Shown piece after piece: positions 44,019-63,837 of a stretch of DNA of 64,000 nucleotides. Position 1 is the stretch's first letter. The number at the start of each line of letters is the position of its first letter. The notes under the pieces are model-generated. The model saw only the letters and a program-made list of their open reading frames with translations, did no database searches and was not told where the DNA came from. The stretch spans positions 21,142,001 through 21,206,000 of the forward strand of contig NC_043021.1 of the NCBI RefSeq assembly GCF_006345805.1, in the 5' to 3' direction. The position numbers were made by a program, and so were the translations under genes. The stretch is from Octopus sinensis. Lineage: Eukaryota.

Positions 44019-44811
44019 ATATCATGTTACTTGGTGTGTGTCCAGGGCATATAACATCATTACAGATGTTTACTCTGCTTCATGGTCTGTAGCTGAACAT
44101 GATGGTATGTTGCAACCTGCACCAGTTAACACCATAGCCTTGGGTTAGTCCTAGTATTGGATAGAAGATTACTGGATGGACTGTATGTATAATTTAAGGG
44201 TTTAGCTTTGTTGCTCCATGTCTCAAAATTAAACCCTGAGAATTACATTGAGGATAAACTTATCTGTGGAATGTTCAGAGGGCATGGGTGTGTGATTAAG
44301 ATGCTCACTTTGCAACCACATGGTTTCGAGTTCAATCTCACTGTGTGGCACCTTAGGCAAGCGTTTTCTACTATAGCCCTGTTATGTATATGTATGTGTG
44401 TGTGTGTGCATATATATATATATATATATCATCATCATCATCATCGTTGTTGTTTAACGTCCGCTTTCCGTGCTAGCACAGGTTGGACGGTTCGACCGGG
44501 GTCTGGGAAGCCAGGAGGCTGCACCAGCCTCCAATCTTGATCTGACAGTGTTTCTACAGCTGGATGCCCTTCCTAACGCCAACCACTCCGTGAGTGTTGT
44601 GGGTGCTTTTTACGTGCCAGGGGAGGCTGGCAGCAGCCAAGATCGGTTGGTGCTTTTTACATGCCACCAGCACAGAGGCCAGTCAAGGCGGCGCTGGCAT
44701 CGGCCACATTTGGATGGTGCTTTTTACGTGCCACCGGCACAAATATCACAACTACTATTTCCATTTGATATTTATTTTGATGTTTATGTACTTGACTCAA
44801 TAGGTCTCCTC

Positions 44812-48772: not shown

Positions 48773-49321
48773 TGTATATGTGTGTATATGTATATATGTG
48801 TATATATGTAAATATGTGTATATATGTATATAAATACATATCATCATCATCGTTTAATGTCCGTTTTCATGCTGGCATGGGTTGGAGCGTTTGACTAGGG
48901 ACTGGCAAGCAAGGAGGTCGCACCAGGTTCCAGTCTGATCTGGTAGTATTTCTACAGCTGGATGCCCTTCTTACTGCCAACCACTCTGATAGTGTAGTGG
49001 GTGCTTTTTACATGGCACTGGCACGGGAGCCAGTCAGGCGGCACTGGCATTGGCCATGTTCAGATGGTGCTTTTCACTTGCCACCAGCTCAGGGAGCCAG
49101 TCAGTTGGCACTGGCAACAACCCACACATGCTTGGTTCATATTGCATGCCACCAGCACGGGAGCCAGTCAGGCAGCACTGGCATCGGCCACAACTACAAT
49201 TTCCATTTGATTGTGATTTGATTTGAATTTTGATCTTGATTTTACTTGATTCAATATGTCTCCTCAAGCACAGAATGTTGCCCAATGATTCAAAGGTACA
49301 TTTTGGGGAAGGCCAGTTTAT

Positions 49322-49382
49322 GGGATTACCTTAGGTTTCTCGTCCATAAAAGGTTTAGTTTTATGGAGTATCGTCAGATCCC
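49322..49382 (-). ncRNA. Candidate type-I hammerhead ribozyme enclosed by a 14-bp inverted repeat
   Basis: GGGAU-CUGACGA-UACUCCAUAAAA cuaaacc UUUUAUGGACGA-GAAA-CCuaaGG-UA-AUCCC. Confidence 0.72.
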
Positions 49383-51669
49383 AAAACCTGTTACTGGCCT
49401 TCCCCATTTTTAATATATACTGCTCTATATCATAGAGTGTGCTTCTTTCGGATTTGTTTTTTACAGATGATACACACACACACACATACAAACACACACA
49501 CACACACACACAACACAACAGGCTTCTTTCAGTTTTCATCTACCAAATCCACTCACAAGGCTTTGGTCAGCCTGAGGCTATAGAAGATACCTGGCCAAGG
49601 CAACATACTGGAACTGAAGCCAGAACCATGTGGTTGAGAAGCAAGCTTTTTACCACACAGCCAAAACTGTGCCTATATATATATATATCATCATCATCAA
49701 TGTAAAGTCCACTTTTTCATGCTTGCATGAAATTTACTAAGGTAAATGAATGACACTGCTTTTGGTGATAGTTGCTTACAACAATCATGAGACATTGAGG
49801 CAAGGACACAATAAGGGTTAGGGATTGAACAGAAGACCATGTGTTTGAGAGACAAACATCTTACCGCACAGACATGACTACACCTATATACACATGAAAA
49901 TAGGAATTAAAGAAATCTAAGTAAATATTGTTGCTGAGTGATCCATGCAAAATTCTGGCTAACATAATATCAAGATTCATGTGCGTTTAATCCACATGGC
50001 ATTCCATACAAACTGTAACTCCGAGAAGATACACTAATCAGTTGGTTATCTCTATTCCTGTATTATACTCTAACCTCTCACCTGGCACACAGCCACTTTC
50101 CTCAGTTCCACGCCCTCTTCCAGCTGAGAGGTCTTTGTCTCTCAAGTTTCTTGGTGACCACACTGGTGTTGGTGCCACATAAAAAGCAACCCAGTACATT
50201 TTGTAAACTAGTTAGCCTTAGGAAGGGTATCCAGCAATAGAAGCCATGCCAAAGCAATGGAGACTGGTACAATCCTCTGGCTTGCCAACATAGATGGATG
50301 TTAAATGATGATGATGATCATCATCATTGTTTAACTGTCATTTTCTATGCTAGTATGGGTAGGATGGATTGGAAAGAGCTGAGGAGCCAGAGGCCTGTGC
50401 CACGCTCCAGTATGGTTTCTATAGGATGTACTTCCTATGTATTGCTGTATATATTACTGAGAGCAGTAAGATTGAGGTGTTTGGGACCATGTCTACTCAA
50501 TTTAATTCTTTTATCCTTTAGTTGTTTCTGTGACTGTACTGTAACATCATTTTGAAGGGCTTAGTTGAATAAATTGGCCCCAGTACTAATTCTTTTTTCC
50601 TTTTTAAAGTTAGTACATATTCTATCAGTCATTAGGAGAAACAAAAGAGTAGGACACAGTGACAGTGATGAGAGAAGAGAGATGGATAGGGAGGCATGCA
50701 GTTAGCTAATTCAGAAAAGTAGATGATGTAGATGAGGCCGAAAGGAGGAAACTGCATCTGTGTGCTATTGGTTATAGCATGTTTATGAGTGAATCATTGC
50801 CAAGCATCCCAGCCTGTTTTTAAAAATTAGAGGATGAGAAAACCTGTATTTGTGACCTCTCACACAGGTGCTTGCACAATGGTGAGATTGATGGGGATGC
50901 TGAACGTAGTTGGAGAGATGACTGTGTGGTTATGGAGCTTGCTTTGCAACCATGTGGGTTTGGGTTCAGTCTCACTGCATGACATCTTGGGCAAGTGTCT
51001 TTTACTATAGTTCCAGGCTGACCAAAATCCTTGTGAGTGAATTTGTAAAATGGAAATTGTGGAAGCCTATCGTGTTGATGTGTATGTGTGTTGGTTTGTT
51101 TATGTCCCTGTATGATGAATTTTTTTTATTATATCCATTATGTAAATGTTTAAGCTAGTTTTGTATGTTTTATTTATTTTCTTTTTTGCTTAAAAAATTT
51201 TAGTCATACTTTAAAAAAAAAAAAAAAGATGGCATGTCAGCCTTGATAGTCAAACAAACTGAAAAGTCAGAATGATTTTAGATTTTTGATTCTATTAATG
51301 TATTTAAAAAAATAAGTATTCATGTAAAATCCATATCCATATAGAAGTTGTTTCCACCTGAGAGAAAGAGGGAACCCAATATTTAAAAAAAAACAACTCA
51401 TTATTATTATTATCATTACTTTTTATTTTTGGTATAAATGGCTCTTTGGCAATCAATCAAGTATATCTTGATAGCTTTGATGGATATTCTCCAAAATAAG
51501 CCAGTAAAAGTCTGAAAATAATCTGAAAAGCTTTCTTATTTTGTCTGCTTTTTTGATCTTTTCTTCATTTTCACTGTGAATATTAAGTGACTGAGGAAAA
51601 TTGGACAGAGTATATTTTTCTCTGATGTCATGTTTTAGTGAAATTGCATAGGTAAAGACAGACAAGAGA

Positions 51670-63338: not shown

Positions 63339-63837
63339 ATCAATATAGGGTGGCAAAAAATTTTGTAGAATTTTTTTGCCACCAGCGGCCTAGTGGGAAA
63401 AAATTAAATAGTCATAGACCATTTTTAAGTTCAACATCAACAATCAAGGAACGGCCATAATAGGCCATTCACCCACTAGAAATAACAGCCAAAGCTTCAA
63501 CCGCAAATAAAAATCAATTCCGTAAACCAGGAGAAAATCTTCCATAGGCCCTCAGATTCTTCAGTAAGAAATAGCCTATTTCTTAGGCTATTTCTTACTG
63601 AAGGCTATTTCTTACTGAAGAATCTGAGGGCCTATGGAAGATTGGCTTGATTTAATTTAATCAGGTTAGTTTACCATTAAACAGCAGATGAAACGGTGCA
63701 TCGTATAAGAAATTACAGGGTAAATGTTTTTTAAATTTTCTCCTGGTTTACGGAATTGATTTTTATTTGCGGTTGAAGCTTTGGCTGTTATTTCTAGTGG
63801 GTGAATGGCCTATTATGGCCGTTCCTTGATTGTTGAT
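63336..63837. mobile_element. (TA)n-flanked fold-back element carrying a hammerhead ribozyme; probable Penelope-like pseudo-LTR insertion
   Basis: Inverted arms 63436-63538/63735-63837 and 63536-63577/63602-63643. Confidence 0.7.
63607..63713 (+). ncRNA. Type-I hammerhead ribozyme with intact core and long stem II
   Basis: Stem I AUUUCUUA/UAAGAAAU; CUGAAGA (63615-63621); stem II AUCUG/CAGAU; GAAA (63690-63693); stem III CGG-ugca-UCG; predicted cleavage after GUA at 63705. Confidence 0.85.

What the first reader, a model, noticed from the sequence alone, without database searches (positions are those of the whole stretch)
49304..49406. Stand-alone hammerhead inside a perfect 14-bp inverted repeat
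Seen: minus-strand CUGACGA..GAAA-CCUAAGG-UA with a 6-bp stem I (UGGGAU/AUCCCA) and a 9-bp stem II helix. The motif is bracketed by tggggaaggccagt (49304-49317) and actggccttcccca (49393-49406), which extend stem I past an internal loop, as in full-length natural hammerheads with loop-bulge tertiary contacts. No Penelope ORF is nearby; it lies immediately upstream of, and on the same strand as, a family C RTE-type element. Inference: either a retrozyme/pseudo-LTR fragment or a ribozyme that defines the 5' end of a non-autonomous retroelement RNA. The base of stem II (U-A followed by two mismatches) is atypical.
Basis: partly seen in the sequence, partly recalled or inferred. Interest (0 to 1): 0.75.

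Follow-up and report, generated by a model that had tools for sequence, protein, structure and literature searches.

The report
Fold-back Penelope fragment with hammerhead
The hammerhead-like motif is really there, but it is the tail-end module of a very common Penelope-like jumping gene, and the 14-base inverted repeat around it is the seam where two cut-down copies lie head to head, so this copy is likely an inert insertion scar of a known kind.

Summary
On the minus strand, 49383-49321 carries CUGACGA...GAAA...UA with three helices, and a perfect 14-bp inverted repeat brackets it. None of 200 shuffles of the window gives a motif this strong.

It is not stand-alone. It is a repeat: 1670 first-look candidates, and 80 copies with an exact core. 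In full copies it lies about 120-150 nt after the end of an ORF. Homologues of that ORF fold as a telomerase-like reverse transcriptase and carry a GIY-YIG domain. That makes it the pseudo-LTR hammerhead of a Penelope-like element (PLE).

The window copy has no ORF. It is two 5'-truncated copies that abut head to head. The 14-bp repeat is the stretch both arms share. Other copies have other junctions, so the arms are not a conserved extension of stem I.

The proposed link to the downstream repeat fails: 3 of 57 loci on the same strand, 3 of 57 on the opposite strand.

A second PLE lineage keeps the same fold with different stems. Cleavage is unproven: RNA-seq shows no read ends at the site.

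This scan made the same reading before on other DNA. It is a known kind, of low interest. A young 492-bp tandem hammerhead family at 63596-63790 deserves its own look.

The parts
49304..49392 (-). Direct arm: a 5'-truncated copy of the PLE 3' end. It runs from 9 nt upstream of stem I to the unit end (..ccttcccca), holds the whole hammerhead-type motif and has no tail.
   Evidence: blastn against a natural full 3' end (L041 2756-2846): 90.1% over 91 nt. 79-93% identity to other genomic copies.
49393..49472 (+). Inverted arm: a second, more severely 5'-truncated copy in the opposite orientation. It holds the last 14 nt of the unit plus the ~70-nt optional tail.
   Evidence: blastn: window 49393->49472 (plus) = L041 2833-2917, 84.7% over 85 nt, abutting the direct arm with no gap. 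The same tail follows the unit in L016, L041, L042 and L051.
49393..49406 (-). 5' arm of the 14-bp inverted repeat. It is the inner end of the inverted arm (reverse complement of the unit's last 14 nt).
49304..49317 (-). 3' arm of the 14-bp inverted repeat. It is the last 14 nt of the direct arm (the unit end).
   Evidence: The 21-nt end motif occurs 165 times exactly in the genome, control 0.
49321..49383 (-). Type I hammerhead-type motif: stem I 49383-49378 / 49326-49321; core CUGACGA 49377-49371; helix II 49367-49359 / 49351-49343 with loop 49358-49352; GAAA 49339-49336; helix III 49336-49328; predicted cleavage between 49327 and 49326.
   Evidence: The covariance model built from 43 family copies scores it 99.5 bits.
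49473..49520 (.). (TG)n/(CA)n microsatellite next to the tail end of the inverted arm. It is the likely insertion target.
   Evidence: Copies of the family are commonly flanked by (TA)n or (TG)n. This was not quantified.

Best explanation
This is an ORF-less insertion scar of a Penelope-like retrotransposon (PLE): two 5'-truncated copies of the element's 3' end lie head to head, and the direct arm carries the element's hammerhead-type motif, which in full, tandemly arranged elements would likely self-cleave the transcript. SHOWN: the motif and the inverted repeat are there. The window holds exactly two abutting arms, L041 2756-2846 on the minus strand and L041 2833-2917 on the plus strand. The 14-bp repeat is therefore the 14 nt (2833-2846) that both arms contain. 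The module is a high-copy repeat. In full copies it sits about 120-150 nt after the end of an ORF whose homologues have a telomerase-like RT fold and a GIY-YIG domain. Copies end either at the unit end or after a ~70-nt tail. Two in three sampled loci have an abutting inverted partner. A second PLE lineage in the same genome has the same core, helix III type and position, with different stem sequences. INFERRED: the two-armed form arose at integration. Target-primed reverse transcription would start at one of two AT-rich sites of the RNA, most often on (TA)n or (TG)n targets, and a strand or template switch then yields the inverted partner, as described for PLEs. The hammerhead would act on multimeric PLE RNA, probably as a dimer through its self-complementary helix III (ACCUAAGGU pairs with itself at 8 of 9 positions). 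The window copy has no ORF, no partner ribozyme and an irregular base of helix II, and probably does nothing.
For: Repeat status: 1670 first-look candidates and 66 scored matches; 80 exact-core copies with control 0; 165 exact 3'-end anchors with control 0. Link to the ORF: L011, L012 and L030 run from the module upstream into an ORF. In 10 of 19 further loci found with the ORF protein, the module lies downstream on the same strand. L047 shows one reading frame series with ..YRDD.., a CxC..C linker, a GIY..YIG-like part and the C.LC..E end, then the module, then (TA)n and the N-terminus of a next PLE ORF. ORF identity: 47 homologues of 577-862 aa. Pfam GIY-YIG hits 7 of 27 aligned members and RVT_1 1 of 27; P0025 scores 25.6 bits on GIY-YIG, above the 22.6 cut-off. 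An AlphaFold model of P0002 has pLDDT 90, and its best PDB matches are TERT (3du5_A, E 7e-9), then DRT2, retron, group II, R2 and LINE-1 RTs. Atlas neighbours carry RVT_1, GIY-YIG and HTH_animal. Architecture: two abutting arms in the window; an inverted partner in 38 of 59 loci; 3' ends at the unit end in 25 of 59 and after the tail in 16 of 59; different junctions in different copies. Hammerhead: 0 of 200 shuffles reach its strength. Lineage B (L053, L055) has CUGAAGA-C-8 bp helix II-GAAA-CC-AAU-GG-UA about 120 nt after its ORF end, followed by a homologous tail and (AT)n. It has 280 first-look candidates, and 4 of its listed places lie just downstream of ORF hits. The family-A covariance model finds lineage B (29 bits, E 4e-5). 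In the joint alignment 5 of 6 stem I pairs differ on both sides, with a covariation score of 0.332 against 0.159 in shuffles (0 of 500 reach it). Literature: PLE hammerheads lie in pLTRs, have a long helix II and a self-complementary helix III, and pairs occur on opposite strands 100-700 bp apart (PMC4209133, main text read). An inverted 5'-truncated partner, a tail at one end and a bias for microsatellites are described for PLEs (PMC8557442, passages). Two RT start sites explain the tail (PMC11167929, main text part 1 and passages).
Against: No Rfam hammerhead model matches the window copy at E<=10. The same search also misses lineage B and the young tandem family, so this test is insensitive here. 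Variation within the family shows no covariation above shuffles (112-132 of 500 shuffles reach the observed values), as expected for decaying dead copies; it adds no support. The G10.1-C11.1 pair, called highly conserved in PLE hammerheads (PMC4209133), is absent from the window (U-A plus two mismatches), from most family copies and from lineage B (A-U). The cross-lineage covariation rests on only two lineages and on a model-fitted alignment. RNA-seq of a related species label (X21-X23) covers the module in both orientations about equally, is continuous across the predicted cut and shows no pile of read ends there. Pfam finds nothing in the octopus-type ORF fragments themselves, so the RT and GIY-YIG calls rest on homologues that are 30-41% identical. 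The tail is ~70 nt, longer than the 30-40 bp described.
Confidence: 0.85

Rival explanations
1. Non-autonomous retrozyme. The ORF-less hammerhead units would form their own family, transcribed, self-cleaved, circularised and copied back by PLE machinery, with the window copy as one member or a fragment of one.
For: ORF-less copies far outnumber ORF-linked ones. One direct tandem pair with a 557-bp period exists (L016/L028). A 2026 preprint argues that animal retrozymes derive from PLE pLTRs (10.64898/2026.07.22.740005, abstract only). Symmetric palindromes with the hinge at one recurrent point (16 of 59 arms start at L041 2730-2739) could be copies of one amplified unit.
Against: Head-to-tail arrays are the mark of retrozymes. 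Here 38 of 59 loci are head to head, and their junctions vary. No back-splice or other joints appeared in the RNA-seq lay (table 5). Arm-to-arm distances give a star-like pattern that supports neither view. The excess of short copies is what 5' truncation of any TPRT element produces.
Confidence: 0.07
2. The motif is real in sequence but is not a ribozyme. It would be a conserved structured part of the PLE 3' end (for example an RT-binding or initiation signal) that resembles a hammerhead, with no cleavage in vivo.
For: G10.1-C11.1 is missing and the base of helix II is irregular. There are no Rfam hits and no read ends at the site. For an anole PLE the hammerhead was not needed for insertion in vitro and no reads ended at its site (PMC11167929, passages). 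Metazoan PLE hammerheads cleave poorly in vitro (PMC4209133). 5' ends of copies avoid the interior of the module (0.13 per nt) and pile up just outside it (0.75-1.19 per nt), as if it were handled as a block.
Against: All 11 fixed core positions plus U-H are kept in two lineages whose stems differ. That is hard to explain for a mere hairpin signal. Helix III is self-complementary in both lineages, as in dimer-forming hammerheads.
Confidence: 0.2
3. A ribozyme that defines the 5' end of the downstream 'family C' (RTE-type) repeat RNA.
For: In the window the repeat starts a few nt after the module on the same strand. L014 repeats the whole composite (68.7% identity over 709 nt), and L011 and L085 have it within 100 nt on the same strand.
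Against: Same strand within 150 nt in 3 of 57 loci, opposite strand in 3 of 57, absent within 150 nt in 51 of 57. The repeat is simply abundant. The module's own constant neighbour is the PLE ORF upstream.
Confidence: 0.02
4. A chance hammerhead-like string inside a fold-back DNA transposon or MITE, or a C/D-box snoRNA.
For: Long palindromic copies look like MITEs (L018, L020, L027). Rfam snoZ122 matches at 23.1 bits, E 0.55.
Against: The 'terminal inverted repeats' are two copies of the 3' end of an RT/GIY-YIG element, with variable inner ends. 0 of 200 shuffles reach the motif's strength. The snoRNA hit is far below its gathering score of 38 and lacks a proper C box.
Confidence: 0.02

Closest known systems
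Minimal type I hammerheads in the pseudo-LTRs of Penelope-like elements (Cervera & de la Pena 2014, PMC4209133)
   Same: Position between PLE ORFs. CUGANGA/GAAA/UH core. Long helix II (8-9 bp). Short helix III whose strand is self-complementary. Mostly solitary copies from truncated PLEs. Pairs on opposite strands a short distance apart.
   Different: No G10.1-C11.1 pair. The base of helix II is irregular: U-A plus two mismatches in the window, and a CG/CG register with single bulges in most copies. Helix I is 6 bp rather than 4-5. Activity is untested.
Insertion architecture of EN+ PLEs: pLTR, adjacent inverted 5'-truncated copy, optional tail at one end, microsatellite targets (Craig et al. 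2021, PMC8557442; Frangieh et al. 2024, PMC11167929)
   Same: Two arms head to head. The tail is on one arm only (window; 6 of 6 symmetric palindromes inspected). There are two alternative 3' ends. Flanks are (TA)n or (TG)n.
   Different: The tail is ~70 nt rather than 30-40 bp. The window copy is extremely short (169 bp in all). The PLE clade was not assigned.
Animal non-LTR retrozymes (Cervera & de la Pena 2020, PMC7229834, listing/abstract only; Li et al. 2026 preprint, abstract only)
   Same: ORF-less type I hammerhead repeats, probably mobilised by PLE machinery.
   Different: Retrozymes are head-to-tail arrays that give circular RNAs. This family is mostly head to head or solitary. The other family in the window (63596-63790) fits that description much better.
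LINE-1 twin priming / 5' inversion (recalled, not read here)
   Same: An inverted, truncated partner made during target-primed reverse transcription.
   Different: A different element class. Here the inverted arm sits upstream of a direct arm of the same 3' end, giving a palindrome.

Membership tests
Hammerhead ribozyme, type I | Conserved core C3-U4-G5-A6-N7-G8-A9 ... G12-A13-A14 ... A15.1/U16.1-H17 | tested here: met
   CUGACGA 49377-49371, GAAA 49339-49336, UA 49328-49327
Hammerhead ribozyme, type I | Three helices around the core, with helix I open and helices II and III capped | tested here: met
   Stem I 6 bp, helix II 9 bp, helix III 3 bp including A15.1-U16.1. 0 of 200 shuffles reach this strength.
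Hammerhead ribozyme, type I | G10.1-C11.1 pair closing helix II | tested here: not met
   The window has U-A, then A/G and C/C. Most of the 80 exact-core copies read UACGCC...GGACGG or CpG-decayed forms of it.
Hammerhead ribozyme, type I | Match to an Rfam hammerhead covariance model | tested here: not met
   No hammerhead family at gathering score or at E<=10. The same search also misses lineage B and the 100%-identical tandem family, so a miss says little.
Hammerhead ribozyme, type I | Site-specific self-cleavage | not testable with these tools
   Only indirect evidence: no read ends at the site in X21-X23. 6 of 80 anchored copies start within 6 nt of the site.
PLE pseudo-LTR hammerhead | Lies in the repeat between PLE ORFs | tested here: met
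   Met at family level: 10 of 19 ORF loci have the module downstream on the same strand, and L047 shows ORF-module-(TA)n-next ORF. In the window itself there is no ORF.
PLE pseudo-LTR hammerhead | Unpaired nucleotide between A9 and 10.1 | tested here: inconclusive
   Clear in lineage B (C or U). In family A a U can be read as unpaired only in the CG/CG register, which the window copy has lost.
PLE pseudo-LTR hammerhead | Self-complementary helix III / loop 3 (dimer formation) | tested here: met
   ACCUAAGGU pairs with itself at 8 of 9 positions. Lineage B ACCAAUGGU does likewise (read).
PLE pseudo-LTR hammerhead | Compensatory changes among copies | tested here: inconclusive
   Within the family it is not above shuffles. 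Between two lineages 5 of 6 stem I pairs changed on both sides, with 0 of 500 shuffles reaching the score, but that is two lineages only and a model-fitted alignment.
Penelope-like element (EN+) | Telomerase-like reverse transcriptase | tested here: met
   For a homologue, not the octopus-type copy itself: the P0002 model (pLDDT 90) has TERT as its best PDB match at E 7e-9. A YRDD motif is present in L047 and L053.
Penelope-like element (EN+) | C-terminal GIY-YIG endonuclease in the same ORF | tested here: met
   L053 has RT motif and GIY..YIG-like motifs in one 327-aa open frame. Pfam GIY-YIG hits 7 of 27 homologues, and P0025 is above the cut-off. The octopus-type fragments alone give no Pfam hit.
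Penelope-like element (EN+) | Partial tandems, inverted 5'-truncated partners and an optional tail | tested here: met
Non-LTR retrozyme | Head-to-tail arrays of ORF-less hammerhead units | tested here: not met
   One two-copy tandem among 59 loci.
Non-LTR retrozyme | Circular RNA of unit length | tested here: inconclusive
   No joints in the lay of three RNA-seq runs. These are poly(A)-type short-read libraries of a related species label, so absence is weak.

The most novel reading that the evidence does not exclude
The hammerhead module is handled as a unit during Penelope retrotransposition, and it is sometimes cut in vivo. In a sample anchored only on the last 21 nt of the unit, 5' ends avoid the interior of the module (7 of 80 over 52 nt). 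They pile up just outside its 5' edge (12 of 80 over 16 nt, among them the window's own start at AACAGG) and at an ATAT hinge (25 of 80 over 21 nt). A small excess (6 of 80 over 7 nt) starts at or within a few nt of the predicted cleavage site. If that excess comes from cleaved RNA being copied, genome scars would be the first in vivo record of PLE hammerhead cleavage in a cephalopod-type genome. The two-armed mini-copies could then be a self-propagating fold-back parasite of PLEs.
Probability: 0.15. Interest if true: 0.55.

Novelty: new member of a known kind. Interest (0 to 1): 0.2.

Why it matters
The finding itself matters little. It adds one more genome, close to Octopus by the only named protein hit, to the animals whose Penelope-like elements carry hammerhead motifs. 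It also shows a variant without the usual G10.1-C11.1 pair. Its practical use is as a caution: a 'stand-alone ribozyme clamped by a perfect inverted repeat' can be the routine two-armed scar of PLE integration. The breakpoint statistics and the young tandem hammerhead family at the end of the window are the parts that could feed the open questions of what PLE hammerheads do and how animal retrozymes arise.

Tried and rejected
- Rfam over the whole window at gathering scores: 0 hits. Rfam at E<=10 on 49150-49560: no hammerhead, only a chance-level snoZ122 hit. Rfam at E<=10 on L053, L013, L104 and L067: no hammerhead, many microsatellite-driven miRNA hits.
- Pfam on ORF fragments of L031, L047, L033, L053, L055 and L067: nothing for the family in question. 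The only hit was RVT_1 at E 0.022, on a different neighbouring PLE in L031.
- First homologue search with the 187-aa RT piece: one hit only, a gene model of Octopus bimaculoides that holds a TE fragment.
- Profile of 27 homologues against PDB sequences: only chance-level ASXL1 hits.
- Search for sequencing runs: no RNA holder listed.
- Lay of three raw RNA-seq runs: no joints and no pile of ends at the cleavage site.
- Arm-by-arm distances in palindromic copies, to tell 'formed at each insertion' from 'amplified as a unit': the pattern is star-like and undecided.
- Within-family covariation: not above shuffles.
- Relaxed hammerhead scan (one core mismatch allowed) downstream of 20 divergent ORF loci: only L053 passed.
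- A by-eye tally of CpG-decay states at the base of helix II in the 80 exact-core copies: TG/TG and CA/CA combinations looked over-represented, not the compensatory ones. I draw nothing from it.
- Earlier scan notes for this genome: none.
Full report
**1. What is in the sequence**

Read on the minus strand, 49406-49304 is: tggggaaggccagt - aacaggttt - UGGGAU - CUGACGA - uac - UCCAUAAAA - cuaaacc - UUUUAUGGA - cga - GAAA - CC - uaa - GG - UA | AUCCCA - uaa - actggccttcccca.

- The repeat finder confirms the outer arms (49304-49317 / 49393-49406) as 14 nt, 100% complementary, and helix II as 9 bp.
- A type I hammerhead descriptor that I wrote finds this site.
- In 200 dinucleotide-preserving shuffles of the whole window, both strands, it finds 0.125 relaxed hits per window and none at the observed strength.
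- The hammerhead fold closed by the outer arms (-40.5 to -41.0 kcal/mol) is level with the minimum free energy fold (-41.1). Without the arms it is only -14.0.
- Rfam finds no hammerhead family, either at gathering scores or at E<=10.

**2. It is a repeat, in more than one form**

The own genome is 2.72 Gb, and the window is C25:21142001-21206000.

- A search with 49290-49450 gave 1670 first-look candidates and 66 scored matches.
- An exact pattern for stem I, the core, GAAA, helix III and stem I occurs 80 times, control 0.
- The last 21 nt of the unit occur 165 times, control 0.

Printing 36 copies showed three forms:
- copies that run upstream into other conserved sequence (L011, L012, L030);
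- long palindromes in which a reverse-complement copy of the module faces a direct copy (L018, L020, L027);
- short forms like the window, in which the reverse-complement arm is cut down to a stub, at a different point in each copy (L002, L003, L004, L006, L010, L019).

**3. The parent element**

L011, L012 and L030 align for about 330 nt upstream of the module, and that stretch reads as the end of an ORF.

- A search of the genome with 113 aa of it gave 5631 first-look candidates.
- In 10 of the 19 new loci fetched, the module lies downstream on the same strand. In 2 it is inverted upstream. In 7 it was not found within the ~3.3-kb locus fetched (~1.5 kb beyond the protein match on each side).
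- L047 shows a frame series with ..GLYRDDILA.., a CxC...C linker, a GIY...YIG-like part and a C.LC..E end. Then come the module, (TA)n and the N-terminal part of another such ORF.
- L053 has the RT motif and the endonuclease motifs in one 327-aa open frame.

Pfam sees nothing in these fragments. The evidence for the ORF's identity comes from homologues:
- 47 homologues of 577-862 aa exist.
- GIY-YIG is hit in 7 of 27 aligned members and RVT_1 in 1 of 27.
- P0025 passes the GIY-YIG cut-off.
- Atlas neighbours carry RVT_1, GIY-YIG and HTH_animal.
- An AlphaFold model of P0002 (pLDDT 90) has telomerase RT as its best PDB match (3du5_A, E 7e-9), followed by DRT2, retron, group II intron, R2 and LINE-1 RTs.

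A telomerase-like RT with a C-terminal GIY-YIG domain defines an endonuclease-bearing Penelope-like element. I did not assign the clade.

**4. What the window copy is**

blastn of a natural full 3' end (L041 2300-2925) against the window gives exactly two pieces:
- 49392->49304 on the minus strand = L041 2756-2846 (90.1%);
- 49393->49472 on the plus strand = L041 2833-2917 (84.7%).

They abut without a gap. The direct arm starts 9 nt upstream of stem I and stops at the unit end. The inverted arm holds the last 14 nt of the unit plus a ~70-nt tail, and it ends at a (TG)n run. The 14-bp inverted repeat is simply positions 2833-2846, which are present in both arms. There is no PLE ORF anywhere in the 64 kb.

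**5. The architecture is typical of the family and of PLEs**

Among 59 loci centred on the module:
- 38 have an abutting inverted partner;
- 3' ends fall at the unit end in 25 and after the tail in 16;
- in all 6 symmetric palindromes inspected, one arm has the tail and the other does not.

This matches published descriptions of PLE insertions: an inverted 5'-truncated copy next to the pLTR, a tail at one end only, and a bias for microsatellites (PMC8557442, passages). The tail has been explained by two internal start sites of reverse transcription (PMC11167929, main text part 1 and passages). Cervera and de la Pena (PMC4209133, main text read) describe PLE hammerheads with a long helix II and a self-complementary helix III. 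They report them mostly as solitary copies, and sometimes as pairs on opposite strands 100-700 bp apart.

The same reading was reached before in this scan on other genomes.

**6. Is the motif a hammerhead in more than looks?**

For:
- A second PLE lineage (L053, L055) has GUUUAGAGAAA-CUGAAGA-C-AUGUCUAG-uucaug-CUAGAUAU-GAAA-CC-aau-GG-UA-UUUUUCUAAAC about 120 nt after its ORF end. A homologous tail and (AT)n follow it.
- That lineage has 280 first-look candidates, and four of its listed places lie just downstream of ORF hits.
- A covariance model built from 43 family-A copies finds lineage B over its full length (29 bits, E 4e-5).
- In the joint alignment 5 of 6 stem I pairs differ on both sides. 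95.5% of cells pair, against 40-64% when partners are slid.
- Helix III is self-complementary in both lineages.

Against, or neutral:
- That comparison has only two lineages and uses a model-fitted alignment.
- Within family A the variation is no better than shuffles.
- G10.1-C11.1 is missing.
- RNA-seq of a related species label covers the module in both orientations, runs on across the predicted cut (L041 2822/2823) and shows no pile of ends.

Cleavage is therefore plausible for intact elements, as dimers, but it is unproven. For the window copy, whose helix II base has two further changes (UACUCC...GGACGAG), it is doubtful.

**7.

- The downstream repeat (49298-48850) lies within 150 nt on the same strand in 3 of 57 loci and on the opposite strand in 3 of 57. 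There is no specific linkage. L014 is an old duplicate of the whole composite.
- Direct tandem copies occur once (L016/L028, 557-bp period).
- In full elements the outer 5' arm is replaced by ..aagaggucaugggcc. Only a 4-bp GGCC/GGCC pairing could extend stem I there.

**8. An extra: where copies start**

I took the first 80 of the 100 listed exact matches to the 21-nt unit end and mapped how far each runs upstream. Three pairs among them are local or segmental duplicates.

| Start point of the copy (nt upstream of the 21-nt anchor) | Copies (of 80) | Span (nt) |
|---|---|---|
| Within a few nt of the predicted cut (2-8) | 6 (one is an internal deletion) | 7 |
| Interior of the module (9-60) | 7 | 52 |
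| Just outside its 5' edge (61-76) | 12 | 16 |
| Around an ATAT hinge (77-97) | 25 | 21 |
| Further up (98-165) | 18 | 68 |
| Run on beyond 165 nt | 12 | - |

The window's start at AACAGG recurs in L146, L150 and L171. The module is thus copied as a block. The small excess at the cut site is a hint only, because a falling truncation rate near the 3' end would give the same picture.

**9. Verdict**

This is a real motif, a known kind of element and a known kind of scar. The interest is low.

Noticed in passing
window 63500-63790 (motif 63607-63713, + strand): A second type I hammerhead-type motif: AUUUCUUA-CUGAAGA-[65-nt helix II closed by AUCUG/CAGAU]-GAAA-CGGUGCAUCG-UA-UAAGAAAU. It belongs to a very young family. 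There are 1071 first-look candidates, and the 40 best matches are 100% identical over 188 nt. Several lie in head-to-tail arrays of ~490-492 bp (3.5 units at 99% in L104). No P0002-like ORF occurs in the six loci fetched. In the window it again has inverted stubs upstream. It looks like an active non-LTR retrozyme and is more interesting than the finding examined.
   Followed up: partly
L031 348-1070 (-), L047 1366-2409 (+), L033 907-1902 (-): In this PLE family the GIY-YIG region is split by a long N/S/T-rich low-complexity insert (~150-200 aa) between the GIY-like and YIG-like motifs. Lineage B (L053) and L067 have a short insert or none.
   Followed up: no
L020 2646-2723 (+), L029 (-) 1986-2057, L035 (-) 556-643, L085 336-366: Further hammerhead-type hits of my descriptor, with fully palindromic helix III strings (CGAUCG, CACGUG, CGUACG, CAUG) and long helix II inserts. 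The genome seems to hold several hammerhead repeat families.
   Followed up: no
L067, oriented 2136-2261: A perfect small palindrome of two facing minimal hammerhead motifs (CCAC-CUGAAGA-U-UGUC..GACA-U-GAAA-CGAUUG-UA-GUGG) lies about 1.1 kb upstream of a compact GIY-YIG ORF fragment.
   Followed up: partly
L031 2906-5549 (-): A different PLE with ..YGRYIDDIIG.. and ..SLYIGQTGRRLADRFAEH.. motifs (Penelope/Poseidon-like in look) lies 1.3 kb upstream of the family-A copy on the same strand. RVT_1 scores E 0.022.
   Followed up: no
80 exact-core copies listed: The two CpGs at the base of helix II (UACGCC / GGACGG) decay in step more often than independently: by my by-eye tally TG/TG 8 and CA/CA 7, against about 4 expected each. 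This is not the compensatory pattern. It may reflect subfamilies or strand-biased decay.
   Followed up: no
window 44161-44228 (-): A weak full-length match of the family-A covariance model (14.7 bits, E about 1). It may be a badly decayed copy.
   Followed up: no
window 49473-48801 vs L014 1068-1685: The whole composite (two-armed PLE scar plus the downstream repeat) recurs once elsewhere at 68.7% identity over 709 nt. That is an old duplication of the composite, not a mobile unit.
   Followed up: partly
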